Of a stretch of DNA of 64,000 nt, positions 1 through 12,574 are shown piece after piece; positions within the stretch are counted from its first letter, which is position 1, and each line of letters starts with the position of its first letter. The notes under the pieces are model-generated. The model was not told the DNA's origin. It saw only the letters and a program-made list of their open reading frames with translations, and ran no database searches. The position numbers and the translations under genes were made by a program. The DNA lies in the NCBI GenBank assembly GCA_963790415.1, contig CAWBOK010000003.1:404409-468408 (forward strand), written 5' to 3'. Source of the DNA: an uncultured Actinomycetota bacterium (GTDB taxonomy: Bacteria; Actinomycetota; Thermoleophilia; RBG-16-64-13).

Positions 1-325
1 GGCGGCCATGGGCGGCCGCTTCGCCAAGGTGGAGATGGGGCCGGTTATCGTGCTCTTCGACGCCACCCGGCCGGACGAGCTACTCGACATGGAGCTGATG
101 GGCCGTCTGGTGACCAGCCAACTGGCGGACGCCGACGTCGTGGCGGTCTCAAAGATCGACGCGGTCTCCCCCGCCGAGCGAGACCGGGCGATGGCCGCCG
201 CGAGAGAAGTGATCCCGGGAGCGGAATTCATCGGAGTGTCGTCGGTCACGGGCGAAGGGATCGACGCCCTCTTGGCCTACATCGTCGGCGGCCTTCAGCC
301 GGCTGGCTTAGAGGTGGAGGCTTGA
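1..325 (+). CDS. G3E-family P-loop GTPase (HypB/UreG/CobW/MeaB-like), C-terminal part; 5' end lies outside the window
   Basis: ORF 8..325 translation ends ...ADADVVAVSKIDAVSPAERDRAMAAAREVIPGAEFIGVSSVTGEGIDALLAYI, typical of the C-terminal half of G3E GTPases. Frame is open to the window edge. Confidence 0.55.
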   Translation, partial: AAMGGRFAKVEMGPVIVLFDATRPDELLDMELMGRLVTSQLADADVVAVSKIDAVSPAERDRAMAAAREVIPGAEFIGVSSVTGEGIDALLAYIVGGLQPAGLEVEA

Positions 326-813
326 GCGCCGACGACGCCTGCTATACCGATCATGGTGTCAGCGGGTATGGGGTGGCCATCAAGTTCCATCAGGATACCG
401 CCGTGGCTCCAGCGGAGGTGGGCGACTTTCTGCGGGAGATGATGGACGACATCGCTCAGGATTGCGTGCGACGCGGAGCCCGTTTCATCGGGCACATCAA
501 GTCGCACCTGGTGTGCGCTCAGGGTAGTCTCAAAGCCGACACTATCGGCATCAACCATCCGGCGGCGCTGCACGGTGAACTCTCGGGGCCCGCCAACGAC
601 CTGTACGTGGCCATCAACTCCATAGTGCAGGGCATCCCTGAGGACCAGGTGATGGAGGCGACCCTGGGTGCTGCCCACCGACTGGCGGAACGACATGGGT
701 TCCGCGTGGTCAAAGAGAAGGAGCACTTGTACTTCGACAAGTACGACTTTGCCAACGAAGAGGAGTATCTTGAGCAGCTCCGTCTGCAGTTCGAGGCGGA
801 GCCGGAACCGTAA
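322..813 (+). CDS. hypothetical protein between two G3E GTPase genes (possible chaperone partner or CobW C-domain-like)
   Basis: 163-aa ORF with ordinary non-Arg-rich composition, start overlapping the upstream stop by 4 nt. No family recognised. Confidence 0.4.
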   Translation: MSADDACYTDHGVSGYGVAIKFHQDTAVAPAEVGDFLREMMDDIAQDCVRRGARFIGHIKSHLVCAQGSLKADTIGINHPAALHGELSGPANDLYVAINSIVQGIPEDQVMEATLGAAHRLAERHGFRVVKEKEHLYFDKYDFANEEEYLEQLRLQFEAEPEP

Positions 814-833: not shown

Positions 834-1439
834 ATGGTGCGCGTGATATCGATCATCGGGCTGGTGGATTCGGGCAAGAGCAGCCTTATCCGGGTGCTCC
901 TCGACGCGGTGCGCTCCCGGGGTGAGTGCGGCGGCGTGGTGATCAACGACGCGGGGGCCGTGTCCCTGGACGTGCCTGAGATCACCGACCGGCACCCCGT
1001 GCGCACCATCGGAGGCGGTTGAATAGGGTGCAACGAAGCCGGGAGCTTCCAGACCGCGATCAAGTCGATGGCTCGAGACGACGGGGTGAGCGTGTTGTTC
1101 GCCGAACCGTCGGGTATCGTTATACCGTTCGAAATGCGCAACGCCATCAGCGCGGCGGGGCGTGACATACCCGTGACCGTGGGTCCGGTGGTGCTCCTGC
1201 TGAACGCCTCCGAGTCGGAGATGCTGTTCGGGGACGGGCTGGGCCATATCACCGCCCAGCAGATCGCACAGGCGGATATGGTGGCCATCACGAAGGCCGA
1301 TTCCGCTCGGGGTACGGAGATCCTCCGATTGGAGGAAGAGGTGGCGCGGCTGGCTCCCCAGACCCATCTGCACCACGTGAACATGCAGTCGGGCGAGGGT
1401 GTCGCCGCCCTCGCAGAAGCTATACTGGGTCCCCTGTAA
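834..1439 (+). CDS. CobW/COG0523-like G3E GTPase with in-frame UGA (candidate selenocysteine) in the CxCC metal-binding motif
   Basis: ORFs 834..1022 and 1068..1439 are in the same frame, separated only by TGA at 1020-1022 with no other stop. Walker A is IGLVDSGKSS. The CobW-like ENEFGE segment reads VVINDAGAV. The usual GCICC motif reads GGG-U-IGC. Downstream LFAEPSGIVIPFE and ITKAD motifs follow. A hairpin GAAGC-CGGGA-GCTTC lies at 1035-1049. Confidence 0.6.
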
Positions 1440-1549
1440 CGAAGGAGGTACCACTGAGGCGACGCTGTCACGGTTTGGCATGGTCGCGACCCGTGGGCGG
1501 AGCGCGAACGAACGTAGAGTTGGGTCAACATAAGGACAAAGGGGTGGAC

Positions 1550-2621
1550 ATGGCTTTGAAGACAGGTGAGATGACGGGCCTCGAGCGCATCGTCTCCGCA
1601 CTGCAACACAAGGAAGGCGACCGCGTGCCGGCGGGCCCGCTGGTGTGCGGGGCGGCTCGGCGGGTGCTGGGCGTCAACTTATCGGGACTGGGCACAGGAC
1701 TCCGACGTGACGATCGAGAGCATGGTCCAGGCGCAGAAGCTCATCAGGCCGGACGGGGTACTGTTGCTGGTGGATCTCTCCGTGGAGGGGGCCGACTTCG
1801 GCGGACCGATGGTCTTCCCCATCGAGGACACTCCGCATCCGGTGTACAAGGACAACCTGATCAAGACTCTCGACGACTACCACAAGGTCGAGCGGATCGA
1901 CCCGCGCAAGGCCAAGCGCATGAGCCATATGGTGCGCTACACCGACGGCGTCATGAAGGCCATGGGCAGCGAGACCGCTGTCATGACCTTCTGCTATGGC
2001 CCGCTGGGCATCCTCTCCATGCTGCGGGGCGCCGAGAAGCTGTTCCTCGACTGCATGAAGAACCCTGAGGTCGTTCACGAGGCCTCCGAGATCATCACCG
2101 ACGTGCTGCTCGAGCAGATCGACGCGCTATGCGAGACCGGCGTGCACGCCGTCGTGCTCGACACGCTGTTCGCGTCCGGTTCGATCATGAGCAAGGACCT
2201 GTGGATGAAGATGGAGGGGCCGTACGCCCGGCGCCTGGCCGAGCGCGTGCATAGCCACGGCAGGGCCGTGATCGTGCACAACTGCGGCAACAACGTGTAC
2301 TTCGACGTCCAGATCGAGACCATGGCGCCGGAGGCGATCAGCTTCGCCTACCTGCCCGACGACTGCAAGACGTCGCAAGAACTCAAAGACAAGTGGGGCG
2401 ACAAGACGTGCCTCATCGGATATGTGCCGCCGAGCCCGGACATGATGCTGCACACTCCCGAGCAGATCAAGGAGACGTGCAAGGAGCAGATCAAGGTGTT
2501 GGCCCCGGGCGGTGGGTTCATCCTCTCCACCGGGTGCGAGTTCCCGCCGAACGGTTCACTGCTCAGCGCCATAGCGATGATGGAAGCGGCCGACGAGTAC
2601 GGCTGGTATCCGATCGCATAG
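1550..2621 (+). CDS. MtaA/MtbA/CmuA-like methylcobamide:acceptor methyltransferase (uroporphyrinogen decarboxylase fold); reading frame changes near 1690
   Basis: N-terminus MALKTGEMTGLERIVSALQHKEGDRVPAGPLVCGAARRVLGVNLS (frame of ORF 1475) matches MtaA N-termini. The rest (ORF 1707..2621, a different frame) matches the UroD/MtaA family through the C-terminus. RBS aaagggg lies before ATG 1550. A single extra base around aacttatcgg restores VNYRDWAQDSDV. Confidence 0.7.
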
Positions 2622-2638
2622 TCGGGCTGCGTGTTTCT

Positions 2639-2669
2639 GGGGGGGCTTCGCCTCGGCGAAGCCCCCCAT
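2639..2669 (+). terminator. perfect GC-rich hairpin (GGGGGGCTTCGCC-tcg-GCGAAGCCCCCC) after the mtaA-like gene; no U-tract
   Basis: Inverted repeat read directly from the sequence, 18 nt downstream of the stop at 2621 and ahead of the corrinoid protein gene. Confidence 0.45.
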
Positions 2670-2706
2670 GCTACGAGGGTCAGTAGATAGTCACTAGGAG
2701 GGATCC

Positions 2707-3372
2707 ATGGGCACAGACGAACGATTCCAGGAACTGCTCGCCGAGATGAAAGACGGCGTCATCGAGTACGACGAGGACCGGGTGATCGCAGCCGCGCAGG
2801 CCGTCGTCGACGAGGGCTTCGACGCCTATGACGGCATCATGAACGGCCTGGCCGCCGGTATGGAAGTGGTGGGAGAGCTCTTCGACTCCCAGGAGTACTT
2901 CGTGCCCGAAGTCCTCATGTGCGCCGACGCCCTCTACGCCGGTCTCGACATCCTGCGTCCCAAGGTGGACATGGCGGGTCGCGAGACCATCAAGGGTGAA
3001 GTGGTCATCGGTGTGGTGGAAGGCGACGTGCACGACATCGGCAAGAACCTGGTCAAGATGATGTTCGAAGTGGCCGGCTTCACCGTCCACGACCTGGGCG
3101 CCGATGTGCCCATCGACGACTTCGTCGAGGCGCAGATCTCCACCAATTCCGACATCGTGTGCCTCTCCGCCATGATGACCACCACCATGATGGGCATGAA
3201 GAAGGCCATCGTGAAGCTGAAAGAGAAGAACCCCAACGTCATGATCATGCTCGGTGGCGCCCCCGTCACCGGCGAGATCGCCGACATGTTCGGCGCCGAC
3301 GGCTACTCCGAGAACGCCTCCAACGCCGTGTCGGAAGCCATCAAGATGGTGGCGGCGCTGCGGAAGATGTAG
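2707..3372 (+). CDS. corrinoid (cobalamin-binding) protein of methyltransferase systems (MtaC/MtbC/MttC-like)
   Basis: B12-binding DxHxxG motif (GDVHDIGKN), followed by a Rossmann-like C-domain (LSAMMTTTM...MLGGAP). RBS GGAGGG lies 5 nt before the ATG. Confidence 0.85.
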   Translation: MGTDERFQELLAEMKDGVIEYDEDRVIAAAQAVVDEGFDAYDGIMNGLAAGMEVVGELFDSQEYFVPEVLMCADALYAGLDILRPKVDMAGRETIKGEVVIGVVEGDVHDIGKNLVKMMFEVAGFTVHDLGADVPIDDFVEAQISTNSDIVCLSAMMTTTMMGMKKAIVKLKEKNPNVMIMLGGAPVTGEIADMFGADGYSENASNAVSEAIKMVAALRKM

Positions 3373-3427
3373 TACGGTTGTATCCGGAGGAGGGCGACAC
3401 GTCGCCCTCTTTTCCAGCTGTGCAGTG

Positions 3428-4282
3428 ATGGTGAGGTCGAGTGAGATGGTCGGCCGCGTGAGCAAGAAGAGACGAGTCAAGGCCCACGTGGGCCCGGTGG
3501 CGCGCCGCGCTCTGACCGCCGCGATGGAAGACATCGCGCGGGCCGCCGGCGCGGACGTCATCGGGTTCGGCGACGTCAGCGCGGCGCTGCCGGCCGATTT
3601 CCATCACCTGCCGGTGGGAGTATCGCTCGGCGTGGTGCATCCGGCCGTCCGATCGCTCCATCTACTGCCGGGAGGATCGCCTGCCGTCGAACTCGAGCGG
3701 GCCTTGGGCGATCATCGCGACAGGCATGCGCAGGTGTTGCTCGAGACGACCCTGAGCCGGCTGGCCGAATACCTGCAGACCCAGGGGTTTCGCTACTTCT
3801 GTTGTCCACCTGAGGTGGACCCTATGGACGCACCCTTCACTGCACTCCTTGTGCGTCGCTTCTCCCACAAAGCGGCCGCAACGTGTGCTGGGCTTGGTTG
3901 GGTGGGTAGGCACGGATTGCTGAACCACCCGGAGTATGGGCCGCATGTGACTTGGGCGACACTGGTGACCAACGCGCCTCTCGACGTCGGTGCTCCCATC
4001 GTCGAGAGCGCATGTGGGGACTGTAGCCTCTGCGTGTCCGCCTGTCCCGCCGGAGCGATATCCGGCCGGCCGTGGCGGCGCGATGATGGCATGGTGAGTC
4101 TGGTCGACGCCGAGAAGTGTCGCCAGATGTTGGTGGACAACGAGCGCGCCACAGGCCGCCGTTTCTGCGGGCGGTGCGTCGTTGTCTGCGCGGAGGCACG
4201 CATGGCCGCGCGTGGCGGCGTCTCCGCACGTTCGGACGAGAGAGGAGGTGGTGCGCGGCTGGACATGGAGAGCGCTCTATAG
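3428..4282 (+). CDS. QueG/RdhA-like iron-sulfur protein (epoxyqueuosine-reductase/reductive-dehalogenase superfamily) with two 4Fe-4S motifs
   Basis: CGDCSLCVSACPAG and CGRCVVVCAE cluster motifs. The N-terminal domain resembles QueG. The part of ORF 3254..4282 overlapping the corrinoid gene is treated as spurious, so the start is placed at the first ATG after 3372. Confidence 0.55.
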   Translation: MVRSSEMVGRVSKKRRVKAHVGPVARRALTAAMEDIARAAGADVIGFGDVSAALPADFHHLPVGVSLGVVHPAVRSLHLLPGGSPAVELERALGDHRDRHAQVLLETTLSRLAEYLQTQGFRYFCCPPEVDPMDAPFTALLVRRFSHKAAATCAGLGWVGRHGLLNHPEYGPHVTWATLVTNAPLDVGAPIVESACGDCSLCVSACPAGAISGRPWRRDDGMVSLVDAEKCRQMLVDNERATGRRFCGRCVVVCAEARMAARGGVSARSDERGGGARLDMESAL

Positions 4283-4302
4283 TCCCTCTACAACGAAGGA
4301 GG

Positions 4303-5238
4303 ATGATGGGTAAGCAGGCAGTCATAGATGCCTATGAAGGGCGCTATACCCCGGTCGTGCCGTGGGTGCCCTACGTGGGCGTCCACGGAGCATATCTGAT
4401 CGGGGAGACGGCCACGAAGGTGCTGCAGGATTCCGATCTACTGGCGAAGGCGGTGGTCAACGCCGCCGAACGCTACAAGGCCGACGGCATCCCGTTGATC
4501 TTCGATCTGGCCGTCGAGGCCATGTCGATGGGAATCACGGCCAAGTGGTTCGACGATAACCCACCTACGGTGATCGAGCATCCGCTGGCAGACAAGACCC
4601 TGGCGGAAGCGGGCCTGAAGATCCCCGGTCCCACCGACGGTCGTTTTCCGACGGTCATCGCGGCGGGCAAGAAGGCCAAAGCGCAGTTGGGCGACGTGGC
4701 CCTCATCGGCCTCGTGTGCGGCCCGCTCACCTTGGCCTCGCACATGCGCGGCGCCAAGATGTTCACCGACATGGTGAAGAAGCCCGAGCTCGCCATGGAG
4801 ATCATGGAGTTCGCGGGCAAGGTGTGCGCGGAGTCGGCGCGCATCTATGCCGAAGAGATCGGCTGCGACATCGTCGCACTGGTGGAGCCCGTTGGCAGCC
4901 AGGTGCGCCCGGACACCTACGACAAGTTCGTGATCCCGGCGTGCCAGGAAGCCTTGGACAACATCCACAAGGCCGGCAAGACCAGCGCTCTCTACATCTG
5001 CGGCGACGCCACCAAGATCGTCGAGAACATGATGTACACCGGCGCCAGCTGCGTGTGCGTCGACGAGCAGTTGAACATGAACTACGTGCGCGACTGCGCC
5101 CTCAAGTATGGTCGCGGCTTCGGCGGCAACCTGAAGCTGACCCTGGCCCTCTCCCTCGGGATCATCGATCCGCGGGAAGACGCCATCGTCAGCCTGGCGG
5201 CCGGCGGCAAGATCGGCTACACCTTCTCCCCTGGCTGA
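4303..5238 (+). CDS. second MtaA/UroD-family methylcobamide methyltransferase
   Basis: MMGKQAVIDAYEGRYTPVVPWVPYVG... shows UroD-family similarity along its full length. RBS GAAGGAGG sits immediately upstream. Intact 311 aa. Confidence 0.8.
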   Translation: MMGKQAVIDAYEGRYTPVVPWVPYVGVHGAYLIGETATKVLQDSDLLAKAVVNAAERYKADGIPLIFDLAVEAMSMGITAKWFDDNPPTVIEHPLADKTLAEAGLKIPGPTDGRFPTVIAAGKKAKAQLGDVALIGLVCGPLTLASHMRGAKMFTDMVKKPELAMEIMEFAGKVCAESARIYAEEIGCDIVALVEPVGSQVRPDTYDKFVIPACQEALDNIHKAGKTSALYICGDATKIVENMMYTGASCVCVDEQLNMNYVRDCALKYGRGFGGNLKLTLALSLGIIDPREDAIVSLAAGGKIGYTFSPG

Positions 5239-5240
5239 GA

Positions 5241-5375
5241 CATGCCCTATGACGTTCCGGTTGAGAACGTGGATAAGGTCATCGAAGTCAAGACCTGGTA
5301 CGAGACGTACTACGCGCACTATCCGAATGTCGACTACCCGTCGATCCTACCCAAACGCAGCCCAGTCAAGGCTTA
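5241..5375 (+). CDS. small ORF (44 aa, MPYDVPVENVDKVIEVKTWYETYYAHYPNVDYPSILPKRSPVKA)
   Basis: Fills the 150-nt gap between mtaA-2 and the thioredoxin-like gene with ordinary composition. Below the ORF-track length cut-off. Confidence 0.2.
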
Positions 5376-5391
5376 GAGGGAGGTGACCCAC

Positions 5392-5733
5392 GTGGCTGAC
5401 GACAAGATCCTTGTCGAGGTGCTCACGCTCGACTCCCTTCAGTGACCGGCCTGCGGGTACATGGTCGATGTACTCAATACGCTGCCGCCGCAAGTGAAGG
5501 AATTCATCGAGTACAAGGAGTGGTCCATCAAGAACCCTGAGGGCATCCAGATGTTCATGGCCCGCAAGGGGAAGGTGCTGCCCACCTTGTGCATCAATGA
5601 AGCGTGCGTCTACGAGAGCATCATCCCGACTCTGGACGAACTCTACGAGACGCTGATCGCCGCTGCAAAGAGCGACTCTCAGAGGGAGACCCTCCGCGCG
5701 GCCTTCGACAAGGCCATGGAGGAGTACAACTAG
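5392..5733 (+). CDS. small thioredoxin-fold protein (Thioredoxin_3-like) with UxxC active site; candidate selenoprotein
   Basis: RBS AGGGAGG lies 9 nt before GTG 5392. In-frame translation is MADDKILVEVLTLDSLQ-U(TGA 5443-5445)-PACGYMVDVLNTL...LPTLCINEACVYESIIPTLDELYE. The beta1/CxxC/alpha1 layout and the C-terminal cis-Pro region are those of the fold. An 8-bp hairpin GGGTACAT-GGTCG-ATGTACTC lies at 5455-5475, 9 nt after the UGA. Confidence 0.6.
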
Positions 5734-5884: not shown

Positions 5885-6444
5885 ATGGCGGTGAGACGCA
5901 TCTGCATGCACGCCTGTGGGGGCATCACCCGCGTAGGAGCGACCGTCGGCCCGACTGGCCACGTACATGGTGGCCGAGGAACTGCTCCCCGAGAAGACGC
6001 TCATCTCGTGTGCTCCGGCGTTTCTGCGCGGCGTCGAGGAGGACGTGCTCATGGTGCTGAAGAGCCCTTCCTTCGCCCTCGACGGCTGCGAGTGGAGCTG
6101 CGGCACCAACCTGCTCTATCTGGCCGGCATCACGCCTGCGGTGCGCTTCCTGCTGCCCGAGTACGCGGAGGCGCAGGGCTTCGATCTCTCGGGAGGCAGC
6201 CGCCGCTTTCCGTCGGGGGTGACGCAGGAGTTCGCCCGAGTCGTCGCCGAGCGGGTGGCCGGCATCGCCGAAGGCATGATGGCTCGAGGCGGCGCGTACC
6301 AGTTCCAGCCGGCCCGAACTCAAGATGCAGCCGGACAAGTGGTTCCGCACGGCGCCGAACATGGAGGGCATCATGGAGTTCGTCCGTATCGAACCGGGCG
6401 TGTATCGGCCCGTGACTATGCCGCTTCTGCCCGAAGAGGCCTGA
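5885..6444 (+). pseudogene. DGC-domain protein paralog 1, interrupted by at least two +1 frame changes
   Basis: N-terminus MAVRRICMHACGGITRVGA is in one frame, ARLATYMVAEELLPEKTLISCAPAFLRGVEEDVLMVLKSPSFALDGCEWSCGTN in a second, and RPELKMQPDKWFRTAPNMEGIMEFVRIEPG in a third. Each segment aligns with the downstream intact paralog. RBS AAGGAG lies before ATG 5885. Confidence 0.5.
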
Positions 6445-6445
6445 C

Positions 6446-7069
6446 ATGGCGGTGGAGAAGGTGACCATCTTCCCTTGTGGGGGGATCGGCGACCCGGTGT
6501 CGTCGGTGACCCGGCTGGCCGGCTACGTTCTGGCGGAGGATCTTCTGCCCGGACCGAGTGGAGCTGGTCGAGTATCCCCCCGATCATCACCGGCGTGCCG
6601 GAGGAACTGGAGGCCGGTGCAGGCCTATCCGGTGATCGTCCTCGACGGCTGCGGCCACCGCTGTGGCTCCAATGCGCTGAATCTGGTGGGCATCAAGCCG
6701 GCGGCCCGCCTCTTCACGCCCCGGGTGCGTTCGGACACCAAGCACGCCATCGGGAAGCGGCGACCGTTCCCGGAGGTGTCGGGTCAGAAGCTGGCAAAGG
6801 ACCTGGCTGAGAGGGCCGCCGCCATCGCCCGCCACATGCTCGAAGACCCGGCGTACGTCTTCGCACGACAGACGGTCAGGCCCAACCCCGAGGGACTCCA
6901 CGACGAGTCCTTGGATATCGAGTCCGCCATGGGGTATGAGGAGATAGAGACGGGCTGCTTCCAATGCGCCGGAATGTGCGCGTTCAAGATGCGGGACGAT
7001 CCCGAGGTGCGCCGCATGCTCGAAGAGGACGTCGAGGAGATCGAGGATGTGGAGGACCTGAGGCCGTGA
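6446..7069 (+). CDS. DGC-domain protein paralog 2 (CGGI...DGC...CGSN motifs, acidic C-terminal tail)
   Basis: Continuous 207-aa ORF: IFPCGGIGDPVSSVTRLAGYVLAEDLLP...VIVLDGCGHRCGSNALNLVGIKPA...ETGCFQCAGMCAF. The middle segment PSGAGRVSPRSSPACRRNW has odd composition, and an alternative frame reads IITGVPEEL. Confidence 0.55.
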   Translation: MAVEKVTIFPCGGIGDPVSSVTRLAGYVLAEDLLPGPSGAGRVSPRSSPACRRNWRPVQAYPVIVLDGCGHRCGSNALNLVGIKPAARLFTPRVRSDTKHAIGKRRPFPEVSGQKLAKDLAERAAAIARHMLEDPAYVFARQTVRPNPEGLHDESLDIESAMGYEEIETGCFQCAGMCAFKMRDDPEVRRMLEEDVEEIEDVEDLRP

Positions 7070-7281: not shown

Positions 7282-7682
7282 TGATGACCCGATCTCTGCA
7301 GGGTTTGCCCGCGCTGAACATACAGGTGGTCTCCGAAGGCGGGCACTGCGTTCCCTGACTGATCGCGATAGACGCCACCCGGGAGGTGGCGGCGGAGTTC
7401 GCTGAGGGCGAGGTGGCCGTCGAGGTGGTCACGCTGAAGGAACCTGCCGGCGCGGAACGGTACCGCGAGTTGCGGCGTTCGGCGGGGCAGCACCTTCCTG
7501 TTCCGTGCGTACTTCTGGAAGGGCGTCTGGTCTCCCCGGGAATCCCGGAACCGGACGGGCTTCGCGAGGTCATCCGAGAGGCGCTGCTCCACGGTCCGCC
7601 AGAGTTCGGCGACGCGACTCCCAGCGACGAGGCTCCCGGTGACGCCAGGACGGTCGACGAGAGGGTGGGCACGGCGGAGTGA
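7281..7682 (+). CDS. thioredoxin-fold protein (Thioredoxin_3-like) with CxxU motif; candidate selenoprotein
   Basis: ATG 7281 with AGGAGG 5 nt upstream. Translation is MMTRSLQGLPALNIQVVSEGGHCVP-U(TGA 7356-7358)-LIAIDATREVAAEFAEGEVAVEVVTL...LPVPCVLLEGRLVSPGIPEPDGLREVI. The cis-Pro/GR region of the thioredoxin fold is present. A hairpin CGCCACC-CGGGA-GGTGGCG lies at 7373-7391. Confidence 0.6.
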
Positions 7683-8275
7683 TCCTGCTGCGGGGGTTCT
7701 ACGGACAGACCGTCGAGATCGAAGAGGACCGTCTCTACGACGGCGCCGAGGAGCTGTGGGTGCGGGACATGGGCGACCGCGTGCGCGTCGGCGTTACGAA
7801 GGTCGGCGTGCTCCTGATGGGCGGCATCGAGTCCACGGAGTTCTTCGTGGAGCCCGGCGACCACATCGAGAAGGACGGCGACCTGGTCTTCTTCGAGACC
7901 TTCAAGGCGGTCCGCTACGTGCTCGCTCCGCTGACCGGGGAGGTGATCGTGGTCAACGACAAGGTGGTCGACGACCCGGAGTTGTTCGACGACGATCCCT
8001 ACGGCGAGGCCTGGTTGGTCGAGGTTCGCCCGGCTTCCCCGGGCTGGGCGGATTCGTCGCTGAACTCGCCGCAGGACTATGCCTCGGCGCTTGAGCGCTC
8101 GGAGCATTGCGCCGAGGGATCGGAGGTCTTGCTCGAGGTCAAGAAAGGCTCCCCCACGTGCCGTTCGCTCTACGGCGGCATCCGTGGGAACGAGCCCGGC
8201 GAGGGGAGTCTCAGCTGGAGAGACCCCGCCGCCGGCGGTGCGCGACCTCCAGAGGAGGAAGGCACCGCCGACTGA
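7679..8275 (+). CDS. glycine-cleavage H-protein-like (lipoyl-domain fold) protein with extended C-terminus
   Basis: LWVRDMGDRVRVGVTKVGVLLMGGIESTEFFVEPGDHIEKDGDLVFFETFKAVRYVLAPLTGEVIVVNDKVVDDPELFDDDPYGEAWLVEV matches the GcvH family, including the ETFKA lysine position. Start overlaps the upstream stop. Confidence 0.65.
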   Translation: MILLRGFYGQTVEIEEDRLYDGAEELWVRDMGDRVRVGVTKVGVLLMGGIESTEFFVEPGDHIEKDGDLVFFETFKAVRYVLAPLTGEVIVVNDKVVDDPELFDDDPYGEAWLVEVRPASPGWADSSLNSPQDYASALERSEHCAEGSEVLLEVKKGSPTCRSLYGGIRGNEPGEGSLSWRDPAAGGARPPEEEGTAD

Positions 8276-8312: not shown

Positions 8313-9053
8313 CTACCTGTGCGCCTGATCCGCCTCGAACCAACGCCACATCATGGCACTCGCCTCGGCGTGGTTGGTCATGTCGCCGGGGCGGAACATC
8401 CCGAAGCCATCGCTGTTGATGACGCCCATCTGCATCATCCAGGCTATGTGGTCGGCGGCCCAGCTACCTTCCGCGCCCGCAAGGCGTCCCATCCTGGTGG
8501 CCATAGCTGCCGTCATGTCCGCCGAAGTGGCGATGCCGTGCTTCGCCTGCCAGGCGCGGTCCATTATGGCCGCCATCTGCTCGCGGGTGATGGTGTCGTA
8601 GGGCCCAAAGGTGCCGTCGGCGTGCCCGGTCAGGATGCCCATCTCGGTCATGGTCTCGATCATGCCCGCTCCCCAGAAGCCTTCCGTGTCGGAGAAGCTG
8701 GTCCCCGCCGTCGGCTGGAGGTTCATCATGCGGGCCATGATGCCCGCGAACTGGCCGCGTGTGAGGGGTTGGTCGGGACCGAAGGTGCCGTCACTGAATC
8801 CACCCATGAATCCGCGCCCGGCCATGTTCTCCGCCATCGGGGCGAACCAGTCGCCAGAGGTGACGTCGACGAACATATGCCCTTGGCCAGGGCCGCCGGG
8901 GACGGTCCCGGGCTGCATCATGGTGGGGCTGCCCGGGCTGCCGCCCATTCCGCCGCCCATCGGGCTTGCGCCGGCCACTCCCGCGAGCAGCAACGCAACC
9001 GTTCCCGTCACGGCGAGTAGGGTGACTCCTGTGCGTCGTACGTTCATTCCCAC
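8313..9053 (-). CDS. secreted S-layer-homology (SLH) domain protein
   Basis: Signal peptide followed by three SLH repeats (FSDGTFGPDQPLTRGQFAGIM, HADGTFGPYDTITREQMAAIM, ...). Confidence 0.75.
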   Translation of the reverse strand: MGMNVRRTGVTLLAVTGTVALLLAGVAGASPMGGGMGGSPGSPTMMQPGTVPGGPGQGHMFVDVTSGDWFAPMAENMAGRGFMGGFSDGTFGPDQPLTRGQFAGIMARMMNLQPTAGTSFSDTEGFWGAGMIETMTEMGILTGHADGTFGPYDTITREQMAAIMDRAWQAKHGIATSADMTAAMATRMGRLAGAEGSWAADHIAWMMQMGVINSDGFGMFRPGDMTNHAEASAMMWRWFEADQAHR

Positions 9054-9227: not shown

Positions 9228-10319
9228 CTAGACCGAAGGACGCGCGAGCGGCAGCGTGAACATCATGGTCGTGCCTTCGCCTACCACGCTCTCAACGTGT
9301 ATCGAGCCCCCCGACTGCTCGACGACGCCCTTGGCCACGGCCAAGCCGATGCCCGCTCCGCCACCGGCGCTCGAGCGCGACTTGTCCACCCGGTAGAACC
9401 GCTCGAAGATGTGGGGCAGGTCGTCCGGTGGGATCCCGATGCCGGTGTCACGCACCGAGAAGAGGACCTCATCCGCCCCTCTCGACGCCGTCACCGTCAC
9501 CATACCGCCGGGGGGCGTATACCGGCAGGCGTTCGTGAGTAGGTTGACCAAGACCTGCTGGAGCTTGTCGGGGTCGACCCACACCGCAGGCAGGTTTTCG
9601 GTCGTCTCCTGGCCCAGCATCACACCCTTCTCCTCGAACTGTGGCCTGAGGCTCATTTCGGCGGTCTGGATGGCGGCGGATGGGTCGACAGGCTGAGGAT
9701 CGAAGCGTTCGGCGCCTGCCTCCAACCGGGAGAGTCTCTGGATGTCGCCCACGAGGCGCGATAGCCTTCCCGCCTCCTGGCGGACCATGTCGTAGGTCGC
9801 GGGCTCCTCGGCGACGACACCGTCCAGAAGTCCTTCCATGTAGCCCTGTATGTTGGTCAGGGGAGTACGCAGTTCGTGCGCGATCGTGGCCAGGAGTTCG
9901 GCCCTCAGCTTCTCGGTGGCCTCGAGTGTGGCGGCCATCTGGTTGAACGCCTCGCTGAACTCCCCGATCTCGTCGTGGGCCCGATAGGCGACGCGCTGCC
10001 CGTAACGTCCATCGGCGATGCGGCGGGCAACCTCCGCCATGTGGGCCAAGGGCCGCGTGATCCACACCGCGACTATGAGGCTCGCGAGGACGGCCACCAG
10101 CCCTGCCACCACCAAGGCGACGAGGACGGCCTGCTCCACTCCGCCCGTGATGGCTTCCTGCAGGTCGCTTGTGGCTCCCGGCATCATGGACGTCATCATG
10201 CTGCCCATATGATCGCGCACGGCACCAATAGCGACGCCCCTGAAGGCGACCGAGGCCGCGGCGATGATCACAGCACACGCGACGAGGTAGGAGAGGAAGA
10301 GCTTCCAGCGCAGTTGCAC
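9228..10319 (-). CDS. two-component sensor histidine kinase (HAMP-HisKA-HATPase)
   Basis: HELRTPLT H-box, N/G1/G2 boxes (LLTNACRYT, DTGIGIP, GGAGIGLAV), two transmembrane segments. Confidence 0.85.
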   Translation of the reverse strand: MQLRWKLFLSYLVACAVIIAAASVAFRGVAIGAVRDHMGSMMTSMMPGATSDLQEAITGGVEQAVLVALVVAGLVAVLASLIVAVWITRPLAHMAEVARRIADGRYGQRVAYRAHDEIGEFSEAFNQMAATLEATEKLRAELLATIAHELRTPLTNIQGYMEGLLDGVVAEEPATYDMVRQEAGRLSRLVGDIQRLSRLEAGAERFDPQPVDPSAAIQTAEMSLRPQFEEKGVMLGQETTENLPAVWVDPDKLQQVLVNLLTNACRYTPPGGMVTVTASRGADEVLFSVRDTGIGIPPDDLPHIFERFYRVDKSRSSAGGGAGIGLAVAKGVVEQSGGSIHVESVVGEGTTMMFTLPLARPSV

Positions 10320-10322
10320 TAT

Positions 10323-11039
10323 CTACTCTTGAAACTTGTAGCCGACGCCCCGCACCGTTCGGATGCGTTTGGGGTCCGCGGGATCCTCTTCGACTTTCTT
10401 GCGCAGATTGGCTACGTGCACGTCTATGGTCCGCGAATCCCCGATGAACGAATACCCCGTGACTCCTTCGAGGAGTTGTTCGCGGGTGAAGACCCAACCG
10501 GGGTGCTCCATGAGGACTTTGAGGAGATCGAATTCCGTTGACGTGAGCTCTACATCGCGTTCTGCGACGGTCACCTGCCTGGTTCTGACATCCAGGGCGA
10601 GGTCGCCGCGCGTGAAACGATCGTCGGCCGCACTGGGTGCCAGCCCGGCCCGGTGGAGGATGGCCCGCACGCGGGCTACGAGCACCTTCGGGCTGAACGG
10701 CTTGGTGAGGTAGTCGTCCACGCCGGCCTCGAATCCGGCGAGCACGTCCTCCTCTTCGCCTCTGGAGGTGAGGATGAGGATGGGAGCGTCTCGCTTCGCC
10801 TTGACCTTCTGTGCGATCTCGAGCCCGGAGAGTCCCGGCAGCATGATGTCGAGGATGAGCAGATCGGGCAGTTGCCGCTCCGCTTCCACCAGACCGCTCC
10901 TGCCGTCGGCCGCTTGTATGACCTCGTAGCCTTCGCGCTCGAGGTACGCGGCAACCAGTCTGCGCACGTTGTCGTCGTCTTCGACCACCAGGATCCGCGA
11001 AGGGCGAGTACCCCGTTCTATGCCTGGGTCAGATTGCAT
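10323..11039 (-). CDS. OmpR-family response regulator
   Basis: Receiver domain (ILVVEDD...LILDIMLPGLSGLE...LTSRG) plus winged-helix (TRGDLALDVRTRQV...LTSTEFDLL...RTVRGVGYKF). Start taken at MQSDPGIERG; the upstream part of the ORF is Arg-rich. Confidence 0.85.
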   Translation of the reverse strand: MQSDPGIERGTRPSRILVVEDDDNVRRLVAAYLEREGYEVIQAADGRSGLVEAERQLPDLLILDIMLPGLSGLEIAQKVKAKRDAPILILTSRGEEEDVLAGFEAGVDDYLTKPFSPKVLVARVRAILHRAGLAPSAADDRFTRGDLALDVRTRQVTVAERDVELTSTEFDLLKVLMEHPGWVFTREQLLEGVTGYSFIGDSRTIDVHVANLRKKVEEDPADPKRIRTVRGVGYKFQE

Positions 11040-11071
11040 CTCTACAGTATAGGGCGACAGGCGAGCGTCTC

Positions 11072-12574
11072 CTAGGCTCGATGCGACATGGGCAGGGTGA
11101 ACATGTATGCGTTGACAGCGATCAGCAGCCAGATGAGGAATAAGTGCGGCACCAACGCGCGCACGGTCCGTGTCTGGCCCCCGCGCCGGGCGATGCGATA
11201 GGCCGCGTACACGGTCGCGACGGCCCCCGCGCCCAGCATGAGGTACTGGAGCACCTGGATCGTGGGGGTGTTCAGCAACTCGTCGCCGACCCGGGTCCAC
11301 GAGAGCCCGAATACCACGGCCAGCGTTCGGGGGACCGCGAACCCTTCGCCCAAGAGGTGGAACAGGTTGTGCGCCATGTGGGCCGCCAGGTCGAGGGGGA
11401 TGATGGCATAGCCGAAGCGGGCGAAGTTCTGCAGGGTGGTCTCATCGTGTCCGCGGCTGAATCGGCTCGCCAGCGCCAGGGCGGCCAACGGCAGGACCAT
11501 GGCGATCGTGAAGATGATCGTGAAGTTGAGCGTGAAGTTGGTCGATCCGGTCAGTCCCGCGACCCGATCCAAGAGCGGCTGCCACACGCTCAGCATGGTC
11601 AGGTTCTGGATGATCACGACGCCGACCAGGATCATCGCGAGAAAGGCCACCTCGATGCGTGCCGTGTTGATATGCCAGAACTCGCTGGTGGGCTTGCGTA
11701 TCTCCAACCGCAGCGAGCCGTGCGGGCATGACTTGATGCAGTTGCCGCACAGGTTGCACTCCCGGTTGGTCTGCATGGTGCGTGGCGTCTCGAACATGGG
11801 GCAGGCCGCCGCGCGCTCGGAGCCTTTGGCGCACCACAGGTCGCGGCATTTGTCCTTGCAGTTGGCCTGATTCGCGCGCAGAGCGAGGGGTGAGGCCATC
11901 GAGTAGTTGCCCGAGAGACCGCCCAGGAAGCAGACGCTTCGGCAGAAGGTGCGGCGCTCGAACACCAGGCTCATGGTAAGGACGCCGGCCAGGATCATGA
12001 GCAGAAGATAGCCGGTGCCACGCGGTGACTCCACGATGCCGAAGACGTGATCGGCCCAGGTGATGCCGATGAACCAGGCGTCGATGATCCAGAGGCCGTA
12101 CTTCTTGAGAAAGGCCGGCATTGGGAGCCGCATGCCGGCAAAACGCTGGAGCAGATCGCCGACGACCGGGAACGGGCACACCGTGCACCAGAACCGGGCG
12201 AGCATGAAGTAGCTTAGGGGGAGCAGCGGCCACCACAGGATCCATACGATCGCCGAGCCGGCGTTGTCGTGCACGGTGGTGGGGCCGAAGAGGGTCTCGA
12301 TCATGATGAACGCGAAGACCAGGACGCCGGCGATCTGGAAGACTCCTGGGTACCACCGGCTACGGAGGAACGCGTTCAACGGCCGCAGGTGCAGCAGGTT
12401 AGGCCGCTCTCCGGAAGGGGGCAGGGGGATCACCTCGGCCAGGCGTAGGTCCTCCACCGGGCGCAGATCGGGCAGTGGCTCCGGCTCGACCAGGGGCTCG
12501 GCCGTCGCGGAGCGGCTGGGCGGTACCGAATTCACAGGTTTGGGCCGATTGTGGTTGCGTTTGCCGTTACTCAC
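11072..12574 (-). CDS. membrane polyferredoxin (NapH/MauN/NosR-like 4Fe-4S-binding integral membrane protein)
   Basis: Several transmembrane segments plus CxxCxxCxxxCP-type clusters (CTVCPFP; CNLCGNCIKSCP; FCRSVCFLG). Confidence 0.7.
   Translation of the reverse strand: MSNGKRNHNRPKPVNSVPPSRSATAEPLVEPEPLPDLRPVEDLRLAEVIPLPPSGERPNLLHLRPLNAFLRSRWYPGVFQIAGVLVFAFIMIETLFGPTTVHDNAGSAIVWILWWPLLPLSYFMLARFWCTVCPFPVVGDLLQRFAGMRLPMPAFLKKYGLWIIDAWFIGITWADHVFGIVESPRGTGYLLLMILAGVLTMSLVFERRTFCRSVCFLGGLSGNYSMASPLALRANQANCKDKCRDLWCAKGSERAAACPMFETPRTMQTNRECNLCGNCIKSCPHGSLRLEIRKPTSEFWHINTARIEVAFLAMILVGVVIIQNLTMLSVWQPLLDRVAGLTGSTNFTLNFTIIFTIAMVLPLAALALASRFSRGHDETTLQNFARFGYAIIPLDLAAHMAHNLFHLLGEGFAVPRTLAVVFGLSWTRVGDELLNTPTIQVLQYLMLGAGAVATVYAAYRIARRGGQTRTVRALVPHLFLIWLLIAVNAYMFTLPMSHRA

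What the first reader, a model, noticed from the sequence alone, without database searches (positions are those of the whole stretch)
1550..5238. Methyltransferase core lacks a substrate-specific MtxB/MttB component; two MtaA-like enzymes plus a QueG-like Fe-S protein
Known corrinoid systems pair one MtaA-type (MT2) enzyme with a substrate-specific MT1 (MtaB, MttB, MtgB, OdmB and so on) and an activase (RamA or RACE). Here both methyltransferases are UroD/MtaA-fold. The only Fe-S protein is QueG/RdhA-like, and QueG itself is a cobamide enzyme. So either one MtaA-like enzyme plays the MT1 role for a thiol-type substrate, or the QueG-like protein is a novel reductive activator. DGC proteins are not known components of such systems.
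Basis: inference. Interest (0 to 1): 0.65.

Follow-up and report, generated by a model that had tools for sequence, protein, structure and literature searches.

The report
Selenocysteine MtaA-like enzyme in corrinoid methyltransferase locus
The interval is the far end of a larger vitamin-B12-type methyl-transfer gene cluster whose "missing" parts lie just upstream of the window in relatives, and one of its two MtaA-like genes is an apparently undescribed selenocysteine-containing enzyme that public annotations cut short at the UGA codon.

Summary
The domain calls are correct: two URO-D/MtaA-fold proteins, a corrinoid protein, a QueG/RdhA-like Fe-S protein, two DGC proteins. The puzzle mostly comes from where the window starts. 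In three contigs with the same gene order (93-95% nucleotide identity), a RACo/AcsV-type activator, an MtrH/MtgA-type methyltransferase, a third and more MtaA-like URO-D enzyme, and a second copy of the corrinoid protein lie 3-10 kb upstream of window position 1.

URO-D-fold enzymes acting as MT1 are already well known (OdmB, MtvB, MtoB, CmuA, CdmB, MtsA).

Each is followed by a hairpin.

- The second gene therefore runs to 5376, not 5238.
- Across 80 species, 74 of 84 homologous sites carry TGA and 9 carry Cys.
- The Sec sits at the C-terminal zinc-ligand cysteine of MtaA, and the histidine ligand is lost.
- The gene is almost always followed by a CxxC/UxxC thioredoxin-like gene.

I found no record of this selenoprotein family. 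The first MtaA-like gene carries a +1 frameshift at 1679. The substrate is unknown.

The parts
2..325 (+). 3' part of a CobW-family GTPase gene (cobW1). The window starts inside it.
   Evidence: Its translation continues the 212-aa cobW gene of L001/L002. The best NCBIfam match of the full-length L002 orthologue is the CobW-related selenoprotein model (122 bits).
322..813 (+). 163-aa conserved protein with no family match (p163). It sits between two cobW genes wherever it occurs.
   Evidence: No Pfam or NCBIfam hit. The order cobW-p163-cobW(Sec) is conserved in Actinomycetota and Desulfobacterota loci.
834..1439 (+). CobW-related GTPase selenoprotein. In-frame TGA at 1020-1022 (GGG-U-IGC, a UxxC motif). 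Hairpin at 1035-1049.
   Evidence: Translation. Pfam cobW. Best NCBIfam match is NF041053, CobW-related selenoprotein, at 121.9 bits, below the cut-off of 180. TGA is conserved in L009-L013 and L089. Hairpin GAAGC-CGGGA-GCUUC.
1550..2621 (+). MT-A: a URO-D-fold methyltransferase-like gene with His-x-Cys...Cys (HNCG, STGC). It is interrupted by a +1 insertion at 1679.
   Evidence: An intact 356-aa orthologue is 99% identical (P0209). In Desulfobacterota its orthologues sit in cobW-p167-cobW(Sec)-MT-A-MoxR-VWA-DUF2284 modules.
2707..3372 (+). Corrinoid protein of the MtbC/MtgC/MtaC type, with the DxHxxG motif.
   Evidence: Pfam B12-binding_2 plus B12-binding. TIGR02370 scores 202 bits against a cut-off of 215. 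The identical protein is encoded twice on ENA contig_66579.
3446..4282 (+). Small (about 278 aa) Fe-S protein with a QueG/RdhA core and eight invariant Cys (two 4Fe-4S motifs). The start codon is uncertain (3428, 3446 or 3449).
4303..5376 (+). MT-B: an MtaA-fold selenoprotein. Sec codon TGA at 5236-5238 (FSPG-U-DMPYDVP). True stop is TAG at 5374-5376.
5252..5270 (+). SECIS-like hairpin ACGUUC-CGGUUGA-GAACGU, starting 13 nt after the MT-B UGA.
   Evidence: Sec-type homologues have a stem of 6.6 bp on average at this place; Cys/Ser-type homologues have 4.6 bp.
5392..5733 (+). Thioredoxin-like partner of MT-B. Sec codon TGA at 5443-5445 (Q-U-PAC, a UxxC motif). Hairpin at 5455-5475 with a GGUCG loop.
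   Evidence: Orthologues outside Actinomycetota read CAAC at the same site. The gene follows MT-B in 71 of 80 loci.
5886..6464 (+). DGC-domain protein 1, with frameshifts near 5946 and 6308 relative to relatives.
6446..7069 (+). DGC-domain protein 2.
   Evidence: Three single-base insertions (6553, 6569, 6616) relative to L001.
7679..8275 (+). GcvH-related (lipoyl-carrier-like) protein.
   Evidence: Pfam GCV_H. NF045810, GcvH-related protein, scores 110 bits against a cut-off of 150. The DGC-DGC-GcvH triad recurs in 15-20 of 80 loci.

Best explanation
The interval is the distal part of a roughly 20-kb corrinoid-dependent methyl-transfer locus of an anaerobic, Thermoleophilia-like actinobacterium.

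The core chain is shown in syntenic relatives and inferred for this genome:
- a RACo/AcsV-type ATP-dependent reductive activator keeps the corrinoid protein in the Co(I) state;
- a URO-D-fold enzyme moves a methyl group between a small methylated substrate and the corrinoid protein;
- an MtrH/MtgA-family enzyme moves it between the methyl-corrinoid and a pterin, most likely tetrahydrofolate.

Inside the interval:
- MT-A (His-x-Cys...Cys), with its own copy of the corrinoid protein, is an extra methyltransferase module. It travels with two CobW metallochaperone GTPases, one of them a selenoprotein.
- MT-B is a selenoprotein with the MtaA fold. The C-terminal zinc-ligand cysteine is selenocysteine and the histidine ligand is replaced by Tyr or Phe.
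- MT-B is translated through UGA 5236 with the help of a downstream hairpin. It works together with the CxxC/UxxC thioredoxin-like protein encoded next to it.

Inferred mechanism: MT-B acts on a soft heteroatom (S, Se or a metalloid) of a methyl donor or acceptor. Its Cys/Sec pair cycles through a selenenylsulfide. That bond is reduced by the thioredoxin-like partner, which is fed by a TrxR-like enzyme or by the lipoyl-GcvH/dihydrolipoyl dehydrogenase proteins found in the same neighbourhoods.

The QueG/RdhA-like Fe-S protein is a lineage-restricted accessory redox protein, possibly cobamide-binding. It is coupled to MT-B and is not the system's activator.
For: Architecture:
- L001/L002 and L089 are 93-95% identical to the window and show this order: Fer2-RACo, MtrH, URO-D (342 aa), CP, MoxR, VWA, cobW, p163, cobW(Sec), MT-A, CP, Fer4, MT-B, Trx, DGC.
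- The MtrH-like protein passes the NF002142 cut-off (292 against 287) and also resembles MtgA.
- The upstream URO-D nearly reaches the MtaA/CmuA cut-offs (226.5 against 235.4).
- The RACo protein matches AcsV at E 3e-128.
- Among 80 species with MT-B homologues, within 10 kb: corrinoid protein 60, RACo 55, cobW 53, MtaA-like URO-D 46, MtrH 43.

Selenocysteine:
- 74 TGA, 9 TGY and 1 TCG at the MT-B site, with a conserved peptide after it.
- Full-length homologues read APGCDMPYDVP at that position.
- The site aligns with the second Zn-ligand Cys of M. mazei MtaA (4AY7), while the His of HxC aligns with Phe/Tyr.
- The AF2 model of a Cys-form homologue has pLDDT 93.7, with the post-Cys segment forming a confident terminal helix. 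It fits 4AY7 at TM 0.86 and rmsd 2.3 A.
- Hairpins follow all three TGAs.
- TGA is an ordinary stop for 14 of 34 window genes.
- Differences in the Trx N-terminus before its TGA are all at third codon positions.

Redox partner proteins:
- The Trx-like gene follows MT-B in 71 of 80 loci. It reads CAAC outside Actinomycetota and UPAC within.
- Recurrent neighbours are HUIPC-like Trx (33 loci), DUF2284 (30), TrxR-like (26) and MTH895/ArsE Trx-like (21).
- LipA, LplA, dihydrolipoyl dehydrogenase and GcvH lie next to MT-B in L087.
Against: - The upstream genes are not in this window. Their presence in this genome is inferred from synteny.
- No substrate, metal content or activity is known for MT-A or MT-B.
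- The redox-cycle idea rests only on gene neighbourhood and on the residue pattern.
- MT-A orthologues in Desulfobacterota lack a corrinoid protein within 10 kb, so MT-A may not be a corrinoid methyltransferase at all.
- No Sec-decoding genes or tRNA-Sec are in the window.
- The contig carries single-base indels, so its sequence quality is imperfect.
Confidence: 0.6

Rival explanations
1. This is a self-contained system of two MtaA-like enzymes and one corrinoid protein, in which the QueG-like Fe-S protein is a new kind of reductive activator replacing RamA/RACE.
For: - The Fe-S protein has the QueG/RdhA core fold with two 4Fe-4S motifs.
- It lies between the corrinoid protein and MT-B, 20 nt upstream of MT-B.
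- The same Fer4_16/URO-D pairing occurs in Ca. Contubernalis.
Against: - A canonical RACo activator is encoded in the same locus in every close relative and near MT-B in 55 of 80 species.
- The Fe-S protein occurs in only 11 of 80 loci.
- Most MT-B/CP/MtrH cassettes work without it.
Confidence: 0.07
2. This is an O-demethylase-type system for methoxylated aromatic compounds. MT-A and/or MT-B would be the ether-cleaving MT1, as in Odm/Vdm/Mtv/Mto.
For: - The architecture of URO-D MT1, corrinoid protein, pterin-type MT2 and RACE-type activator is that of bacterial and archaeal O-demethylases.
- From my own knowledge: carriers such as Desulfomonile tiedjei and Desulfofundulus species are known O-demethylators.
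- Loss of the His ligand in MT-B recalls the zinc-free O-demethylases and CdmB.
Against: - Among solved structures MT-B is closest to MtaA (30% identity, TM 0.86), followed only by true UROD. No O-demethylase MT1 structure appeared among the hits.
- Kountz and Balskus report that Cys ligands are replaced by carboxylates or lost in O-methyltransferases, and that His-Cys-Cys marks S/Se enzymes. MT-A and the upstream URO-D keep His-Cys-Cys, and MT-B keeps Cys plus Sec.
- A dedicated thiol/selenol redox relay has no role in ether cleavage.
Confidence: 0.13
3. MT-A, the CobW GTPases, MoxR/VWA, DUF2284 and the QueG/RdhA/CblC-like Fe-S protein form a cofactor maturation or trafficking set (corrinoid processing or loading, or metal insertion). 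They would not be catalytic methyltransferases of a catabolic pathway.
For: - From my own knowledge: CobW is a Co/Zn metallochaperone family.
- The MoxR AAA+ protein gives a weak CobS hit. With the VWA protein it resembles the CobS/CobT pair.
- CobO adenosyltransferase is nearby in 24 loci.
- CbiMQO transporter genes adjoin the MT-A module in L091.
- The Fe-S protein model also matches MMACHC, a B12-processing enzyme.
- MT-A modules in Desulfobacterota lack a corrinoid protein.
Against: - MT-A keeps the full His-x-Cys...Cys catalytic signature of thiol methyltransferases.
- In this lineage MT-A is followed by its own corrinoid protein copy.
- MT-A is under strong purifying selection: 99% protein identity against about 95% DNA identity.
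Confidence: 0.15
4. The in-frame TGAs are real stops, sequencing errors or pseudogene lesions, and the downstream frames are not translated.
For: - The contig has single-base indels in MT-A and DGC1.
- Public annotations call a 310-aa protein plus a separate 44-46-aa ORF.
Against: - TGA occurs at the same codon in 74 of 84 sites from 80 species of four phyla (Actinomycetota, Bacillota, Thermodesulfobacteriota, one Spirochaetia MAG), and Cys occurs at 9 others.
- The downstream peptide is conserved and forms the last helix of the barrel.
- A conserved hairpin follows the codon.
- The two other TGAs lie at CxxC-type cysteines, and one of those families is already a curated selenoprotein.
Confidence: 0.02

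Closest known systems
Methylcobamide:CoM methyltransferase MtaA (M. mazei, PDB 4AY7) and its relatives MtbA and MtsA
   Same: MT-B family model: the same URO-D TIM-barrel over its whole length (TM 0.86, rmsd 2.3 A, 30% identity). The first Zn-ligand Cys and the PGC position align. MT-A (no model made; Pfam URO-D only): keeps His-x-Cys...Cys by sequence.
   Different: - MT-B has Phe/Tyr in place of the His ligand and Sec in place of the second Cys.
- Both proteins score far below the family cut-offs.
- The hosts are bacteria, with an MtrH-type pterin methyltransferase in the locus, so coenzyme M is an unlikely partner.
- A Trx-like partner is unknown for MtaA.
Type 1 mlp gene clusters (Kountz and Balskus, PMC10418091) and the sdm genes of Methanococcus voltae
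   Same: - Several MtaA-like proteins, a corrinoid protein and a RACE activator in anaerobes.
- A strong link with selenium use.
- A proposed role in methyl-sulfur or methyl-selenium metabolism.
   Different: - Those clusters lack an H4folate-type methyltransferase, and their Mlps are almost invariably His-Cys-Cys.
- Here an MtrH-family gene is part of the locus and MT-B lacks the His.
- That paper reports no Sec-containing Mlp.
URO-D-superfamily MT1 systems with a pterin-type MT2: O-demethylases (OdmB, VdmB, MtvB, MtoB), chloromethane Cdm/Cmu, dichloromethane mec cassette
   Same: - MT1 of the UroD fold, a corrinoid protein, an MT2 that binds a pterin and a RACo-type activator.
- The mec cassette also carries three UroD-fold proteins and an MtrH.
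   Different: - Those systems have no selenocysteine.
- They have no Trx-like, TrxR, GcvH or DGC partners.
- Their ligand patterns differ.
- No close sequence relation was detected.
Epoxyqueuosine reductase QueG and reductive dehalogenases RdhA
   Same: The Fe-S protein shares the nitroreductase-like cobamide-binding core and the two 4Fe-4S motifs.
   Different: - It is 278 aa and lacks QueG's C-terminal tRNA-binding domain.
- QueG scores 58.5 against a cut-off of 200, and RdhA scores 52.5 against 160.
- The QueG catalytic-loop Asp aligns with a non-conserved Leu.
- It is equally distant from both families.
[quoted passage not shown]
   Same: - The GTPase at 834-1439 has the UxxC motif and gives its best match to NF041053.
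- The Trx-like protein gives a weak match to NF047660.
   Different: - Both score below the curated cut-offs.
- The MT-B partner is a separate family (LTLDSxQ-C/U-xAC-GYM) from the HCIPC-type protein that also occurs in these neighbourhoods.
SAM-dependent arsenite methyltransferase ArsM (an analogy in mechanism only)
   Same: - From my own knowledge: methyl transfer to a soft metalloid held by cysteines is coupled to formation of a disulfide, which thioredoxin then reduces.
- Sec-containing ArsM and ArsM/DUF2284 fusions exist.
- DUF2284, ArsE-type Trx and MIP channels recur near MT-B.
   Different: - The fold and the methyl donor differ (a corrinoid protein instead of SAM).
- No ars genes were seen in the neighbourhoods.
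- The comparison is purely inferential.

Membership tests
MtaA/CmuA family methyltransferase (TIGR01463 / NF004889) | Whole-protein score at or above the curated cut-off (235.4 / 244 bits) | tested here: not met
   MT-A scores 92 / 107 bits and MT-B scores 120 / 117 bits. The upstream URO-D of L089 scores 226.5 / 239.9, just below the cut-offs.
MtaA/CmuA family methyltransferase (TIGR01463 / NF004889) | URO-D TIM-barrel fold | tested here: met
   Pfam PF01208 over the full length of both proteins. The MT-B family model fits 4AY7 at TM 0.86.
MtaA/CmuA family methyltransferase (TIGR01463 / NF004889) | His-x-Cys ... Cys zinc site | tested here: not met
   MT-B reads Y-I-C ... PG-U (F-I-C in most homologues); the His is absent and the second Cys is Sec. 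MT-A does have H-N-C ... T-G-C, read directly from its sequence.
MtaA/CmuA family methyltransferase (TIGR01463 / NF004889) | Methyl transfer from a methyl-corrinoid protein to coenzyme M or another thiol | not testable with these tools
   Needs an enzyme assay.
Bacterial selenoprotein | In-frame TGA aligned with Cys in homologues (a Sec/Cys pair) | tested here: met
   MT-B: 74 TGA, 9 Cys and 1 Ser. Trx-like: TGA in Actinomycetota and TGY elsewhere. CobW: TGA conserved at a UxxC motif.
Bacterial selenoprotein | Coding conservation continues past the TGA | tested here: met
   The DMPYDVPVE(N/H)... peptide is conserved across phyla. It forms a confident terminal helix in the model. Codon-position bias of differences.
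Bacterial selenoprotein | SECIS-like hairpin shortly downstream of the UGA, with G/U in the apical loop | tested here: met
   Hairpins start 12-13 nt after each UGA, with loops CGGGA, CGGUUGA and GGUCG. Stems are longer in Sec-type than in Cys-type homologues (6.6 against 4.6 bp). The whole-region fold z-score is not significant.
Bacterial selenoprotein | The genome encodes selA, selB, selC and selD | not testable with these tools
   No tRNA in the window and no sel gene among the 30 larger ORFs scanned. The rest of the genome is unavailable.
tRNA epoxyqueuosine reductase QueG (TIGR00276) | Score at or above 200 bits, with the N-terminal DUF1730 (PF08331) domain and the C-terminal HEAT-like domain | tested here: not met
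   It scores 58.5 bits, covering residues 146-260 only. Pfam gives ferredoxin-type 4Fe-4S domains only (Fer4_16 best). Genuine QueG proteins with PF08331 appear only at E of 1e-9 or worse. The protein is 278 aa.
tRNA epoxyqueuosine reductase QueG (TIGR00276) | Cobamide-binding core fold with two 4Fe-4S clusters | tested here: inconclusive
   Eight invariant Cys. Foldseek gives QueG/RdhA/MMACHC as top hits, but TM is only 0.50-0.55 and rmsd 6-7 A. Cobamide binding itself was not tested.
Reductive dehalogenase RdhA (TIGR02486) | Score at or above 160 bits | tested here: not met
   52.5 bits. The profile does align over nearly its whole length to the PceA-type chain 8q4h, at 78 bits.
Methyltransferase cognate corrinoid protein (TIGR02370) | B12-binding_2 cap plus a Rossmann B12-binding domain with DxHxxG | tested here: met
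   Both Pfam domains are present. GDVHDIG is in the sequence. The TIGR02370 score is 202.4, slightly below the cut-off of 215.3.
Type 1 mlp gene cluster (Kountz and Balskus) | Two or more MtaA-like proteins, a corrinoid protein and a RACE activator, without an H4folate methyltransferase, and with Mlps that are His-Cys-Cys | tested here: not met
   An MtrH-family gene is part of the locus in relatives. MT-B lacks the His. Orthology to Mlp1-3 was not tested.
CobW-related selenoprotein (NF041053) | A short CobW-type GTPase with UxxC, scoring at or above 180 bits | tested here: inconclusive
   The UxxC motif is present and this is the best-matching family, but the score is 121.9 bits.

The most novel reading that the evidence does not exclude
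MT-B is a cobamide-dependent methyltransferase or demethylase for a metalloid or chalcogen: arsenic, selenium, antimony or tellurium species, or a methyl-sulfur compound that needs prior reduction. The substrate atom would occupy the former zinc site, held by Cys plus Sec. Each turnover would leave a selenenylsulfide, which is reduced by the dedicated thioredoxin-like protein. That protein would in turn be fed by a TrxR-like enzyme or by lipoyl-GcvH with dihydrolipoyl dehydrogenase. This would be an anaerobic, corrinoid-based counterpart of ArsM. It would supply the missing genes for cobalamin-dependent metalloid methylation or demethylation in anoxic soils and sediments. The minimal QueG/RdhA-like protein could be a second, cobamide-bearing redox partner.
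Probability: 0.2. Interest if true: 0.9.

Novelty: new variant of a known kind. Interest (0 to 1): 0.68.

Why it matters
Corrinoid methyltransferase systems with UroD-fold MT1 enzymes are known. I found no description of a selenocysteine-containing member. It is absent from the 2026 review table of prokaryotic selenoproteins, from two recent selenoprotein database or method papers, and from NCBIfam release 20.

The family is widespread. It occurs in 80 species of Actinomycetota, Bacillota and Desulfobacterota, including cultured Desulfomonile, Desulfofundulus and Desulfatitalea. It is predominantly the Sec form.

It is systematically mis-annotated. RefSeq WP_041286252.1 is a 310-aa stump, and GenBank splits the gene into a 310-aa protein and a 46-aa "hypothetical protein".

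A Sec at a former zinc-ligand position, a lost His and an obligate thioredoxin-like partner together point to chemistry not yet described for the MtaA fold. Cultured carriers and Cys-form paralogues exist, so the function can be tested directly.

Tried and rejected
- Genetic-code reassignment of TGA. Rejected: TGA ends 14 of 34 window genes.
- Genuine QueG or RdhA identity for the Fe-S protein. Rejected on scores, length and domain content.
- An MttB/MtaB-type MT1 elsewhere in the window. None among the 30 larger ORFs scanned.
- Relation to the dichloromethane mec cassette or the Cdm chloromethane system. The resemblance is architectural only.
- Rfam scan of the window and two related loci. 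No riboswitch or other family reached the gathering threshold.
- Whole-region RNA fold of 5230-5300. Not more stable than shuffles (z -0.27). Only the local hairpin is conserved.
- Structure prediction of the window's own MT-B with Sec replaced by Cys.
- Reading Haft and Tolstoy 2025 (mSystems), which defines the HUIPC Trx-like selenoprotein and may discuss this neighbourhood. The paper is not held.
- Testing orthology of MT-A, MT-B and the upstream URO-D to Mlp1-3, SdmB/C, MtsA, OdmB or MtoB.
- Searching for sel genes or tRNA-Sec. None in the window.

Full report
**What is in the interval.** The window is about 65% G+C. Gene calls were made from stop-to-stop frames with third-position G+C bias. 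On the + strand the cluster reads:
- the 3' end of a cobW GTPase gene (2-325);
- a 163-aa protein with no family match (322-813);
- a second cobW GTPase (834-1439);
- a URO-D protein, here called MT-A (1550-2621);
- a corrinoid protein (2707-3372);
- a Fer4_16 Fe-S protein (about 3446-4282);
- a second URO-D protein, MT-B (from 4303);
- a small thioredoxin-like ORF (5392-5733);
- two DGC proteins (5886-6464 and 6446-7069);
- a GcvH-like protein (7679-8275).

Among the 30 larger ORFs of the window that were scanned there is no MttB- or MtaB-type gene.

**Two corrections to the coordinates.** First, MT-A is not a single open frame. An extra T at 1679 shifts the frame between ...RRVLGVN and YRDWAQDSD.... 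Related assemblies encode an intact 356-aa protein that is 99% identical to the repaired translation, although the DNA is only about 95% identical. The gene has therefore been under purifying selection until very recently. The shift is either an assembly error or a strain-specific lesion. Similar single-base insertions affect the DGC genes.

Second, MT-B does not stop at 5238. TGA 5236-5238 is in frame and the frame runs on to TAG 5374-5376.

**Three selenocysteine codons.** In-frame TGAs occur at three places:
- 1020-1022 in the CobW GTPase (GGG-U-IGC);
- 5236-5238 in MT-B (FSPG-U-DMPYDVP);
- 5443-5445 in the thioredoxin-like ORF (LQ-U-PAC).

These are shown.

For MT-B, the protein search returned two length classes. 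One has 309-311 aa and ends exactly at the TGA. The other has 343-357 aa and carries Cys in that column.

A scan of one genome per species returned 80 loci from Actinomycetota, Bacillota, Thermodesulfobacteriota and a spirochaete. At the homologous codon there are 74 TGA, 9 TGY (Cys) and 1 TCG (Ser). The following peptide, DMPYDVPVE(N/H)..., is conserved in all of them.

An AlphaFold model of a Cys-form homologue (pLDDT 93.7) places the post-Cys segment as the confident last helix of the barrel.

A hairpin starts 13 nt after the UGA. In this lineage it is ACGUUC-CGGUUGA-GAACGU; in Desulfobacterota it is AUGUUCC-GGU-GGAACAU. Its stem averages 6.6 bp in Sec-type genes and 4.6 bp in Cys/Ser-type genes.

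The other two TGAs are also followed by hairpins, with G-rich or GGUCG loops.

TGA is an ordinary stop for 14 of 34 window genes, so this is site-specific recoding and not a changed genetic code.

The CobW case matches a curated selenoprotein family, NF041053 with a UxxC motif. The thioredoxin-like protein reads CAAC in other phyla and UPAC only in Actinomycetota. The differences in its short N-terminal part before the TGA are all at third codon positions.

**What MT-B is.** A profile of the family matches M. mazei MtaA (4AY7) at E 1e-31. The His of MtaA's H-I-C motif aligns with Phe/Tyr. The Cys of that motif is kept. The Sec/Cys column aligns with the PGC cysteine, which is the second thiolate zinc ligand of MtaA by my own knowledge of that structure.

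The model fits 4AY7 at TM 0.86 and rmsd 2.3 A over its whole length, ahead of true uroporphyrinogen decarboxylases.

MT-A, MT-B and the upstream URO-D share only 21-27% identity with one another. MT-A and MT-B are far below the MtaA/CmuA cut-offs.

**What lies upstream of the window.** The window's corrinoid protein is encoded exactly, and twice, on an ENA contig (L001/L002) that is about 95% identical to the window. A second assembly (L089, 854 kb) is about 94.7% identical.

Both show the same order: Fer2-RACo, MtrH-like, URO-D (342 aa; HICG...PGC), corrinoid protein, MoxR/CbbQ AAA+, a protein of about 540 aa, VWA, cobW, p163, cobW (split at the TGA), MT-A, corrinoid protein, Fer4, MT-B (split at the TGA), Trx-like, DGC.

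The individual scores are as follows:
- the MtrH-like protein passes the MtrH-family cut-off (292 against 287) and resembles MtgA;
- the upstream URO-D nearly reaches the MtaA/CmuA cut-offs;
- the RACo protein is AcsV-like.

So the activator and an H4folate-type methyltransferase are encoded 3-10 kb before window position 1. It is met in spirit, although the gene concerned is not an MttB.

**Conserved neighbourhood.** Within 10 kb of MT-B in the 80 species loci I counted:

| Neighbour | Loci (of 80) |
|---|---|
| Thioredoxin-like partner, immediately downstream | 71 |
| Corrinoid protein | 60 |
| RACo | 55 |
| cobW | 53 |
| MtaA-like URO-D | 46 |
| MtrH | 43 |
| CobO | 24 |
| GcvH | 20 |
| DGC | 15-16 |
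| QueG-like Fe-S protein | 11 |
| MT-A | 3 |

De novo clustering of all neighbouring ORFs added further recurrent families:
- an HUIPC-like thioredoxin (33 loci);
- a Cys-rich 123-aa protein (31);
- DUF2284, a domain also found fused to ArsM in selenoproteins (30);
- a thioredoxin-reductase-like flavoprotein (26);
- an MTH895/ArsE thioredoxin-like protein (21);
- a 4-Cys TSCPD protein (15);
- a MIP channel (10).

In one Clostridiales MAG, MT-B and its partner are followed by lipoyl synthase, lipoate ligase, dihydrolipoyl dehydrogenase and a second GcvH.

MT-A has its own conserved module in Desulfobacterota: cobW, p167, cobW(Sec), MT-A, MoxR, VWA, DUF2284. It lies next to CbiMQO or a MIP channel, and there is no corrinoid protein within 10 kb.

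**The QueG-like protein.** It belongs to a small family of 220-280-aa proteins (88 hits). Genuine QueG proteins with PF08331 appear only at the weak end of the list.
- It has eight invariant Cys.
- Its AlphaFold model (pLDDT 87) matches QueG, then RdhA, then MMACHC over its whole length, at TM about 0.5.
- A family profile scores QueG and a PceA-type RdhA equally (79 and 78 bits).
- The position of QueG's catalytic-loop Asp aligns with a non-conserved Leu.

It is therefore a minimal member of the QueG/RdhA superfamily and not an epoxyqueuosine reductase. Whether it binds a cobamide is open. It lies directly upstream of MT-B only in Actinomycetota, and upstream of a Cys-type MT-B paralogue in Ca. 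Contubernalis.

**Mechanism.**

*Shown here:*
- the fold and family of each part;
- the Sec/Cys pairs;
- the synteny with an activator, an MT2, an MtaA-like enzyme and a corrinoid protein;
- the near-obligate pairing of MT-B with its thioredoxin-like partner.

*Inferred:*
- methyl groups pass between a small methylated compound and a pterin by way of the corrinoid protein;
- URO-D-fold enzymes act on the substrate side, and the MtrH-like enzyme on the pterin side;
- MT-B's Cys/Sec pair at the former zinc site is redox-active and is recycled by the thioredoxin-like protein.

Kountz and Balskus argue that His-Cys-Cys sites mark S- or Se-methyltransferases, whereas O-demethylases lose the Cys ligands. 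That favours a soft-heteroatom substrate here.

The enrichment of metal(loid)-associated proteins (DUF2284, ArsE-type Trx, MIP, CobW) suggests a metalloid substrate but does not prove one. No canonical ars or sel genes were seen in the neighbourhoods.

**Comparison with what is known.**
- UroD-fold MT1 enzymes are established: OdmB, VdmB, MtvB, MtoB, CdmB, CmuA and MecE/C, and MtsA by my own knowledge.
- Clusters with several MtaA-like proteins are also known. The type 1 mlp clusters are linked to selenium use. The mec cassette has three UroD-fold proteins and an MtrH.

What appears new is a selenocysteine-containing member of the MtaA fold together with its redox partners.
- The 2026 review table of prokaryotic selenoproteins lists the CobW-related and HUIPC families but no URO-D, PF01208 or MtaA entry.
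- BSepDB, deep-Sep (main text and supplements) and the 2022 Haft preprint do not mention one.
- NCBIfam has no model for it.
- RefSeq and GenBank truncate the protein.

One caveat applies. Haft and Tolstoy 2025 could not be read.

**Verdict.**
- The real interest is the Sec-containing MtaA-like enzyme and the conserved thiol/selenol set of genes around a complete corrinoid methyl-transfer cassette.

Noticed in passing
window 1679, 5946, 6308, 6553/6569/6616: Isolated single-base insertions relative to two contigs that are about 95% identical. They break MT-A and DGC1 and locally shift DGC2. The related contigs have their own frameshifts (mtrH in L002, the Fer4 gene in L089). This pattern suggests indel-prone, probably long-read, assemblies rather than real pseudogenes.
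   Followed up: partly
L001 2638-3303 and 10001-10666 (window 2707-3372): The corrinoid protein gene is present twice in relatives and encodes exactly the same 221-aa protein in both copies. The window's copy is 98% identical in DNA to the upstream copy, while the surrounding DNA is about 95% identical. This suggests gene conversion or very strong constraint.
   Followed up: partly
L002 10833-14348; L088 2471-5625; L090 11463-14764; L091 11589-14694: A MoxR/CbbQ AAA+ ATPase and a large VWA-like protein accompany the cobW genes and MT-A across phyla. The pair resembles CobS/CobT-type chelatase or chaperone pairs. The 540-aa protein between them has no family match.
   Followed up: partly
L006 (Ca. 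Contubernalis alkaliaceticus CP054699.1:1143562-1164614): One genome carries both a Sec-type MT-B (310 + 45 aa) with its Trx partner and a Cys-type paralogue preceded by a Fer4_16 protein. Nearby are DGC-DGC-GcvH, a radical-SAM protein, a dihydrolipoyl-dehydrogenase-like flavoprotein, a second GcvH, DUF6951 and a MIP channel.
   Followed up: partly
window 9228-11300 (- strand): A HAMP/HisKA/HATPase sensor kinase and a response regulator lie just downstream of the cluster and are conserved in L001 and L089. They may be its regulators.
   Followed up: no
window 11072-12574 and 13317-14876 (- strand): A 500-aa Fer4_5 protein and a 518-aa radical-SAM protein are also syntenic with L001 and L089. 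Their function is unknown.
   Followed up: no
window 8313-9053 and 36129-37469 (- strand): SLH-domain (S-layer homology) proteins, which are unusual for Actinomycetota and a hint about the cell envelope of this lineage.
   Followed up: no
window 16805-23113 (- strand): A 1138-aa GH57 alpha-amylase/4-alpha-glucanotransferase-like protein is followed by a second GH57 protein and a group-1 glycosyltransferase. This is a glucan metabolism block unrelated to the finding.
   Followed up: no
window 32452-34110: A methylmalonyl-CoA mutase large subunit, another B12-dependent enzyme in the window. L087 also has an MCM gene next to its methyltransferase cassette.
   Followed up: no
window 834-5733: All three selenoprotein genes in the cluster end in TAA or TAG and not TGA, although TGA is the stop for 14 of 34 genes in the window.
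   Followed up: partly
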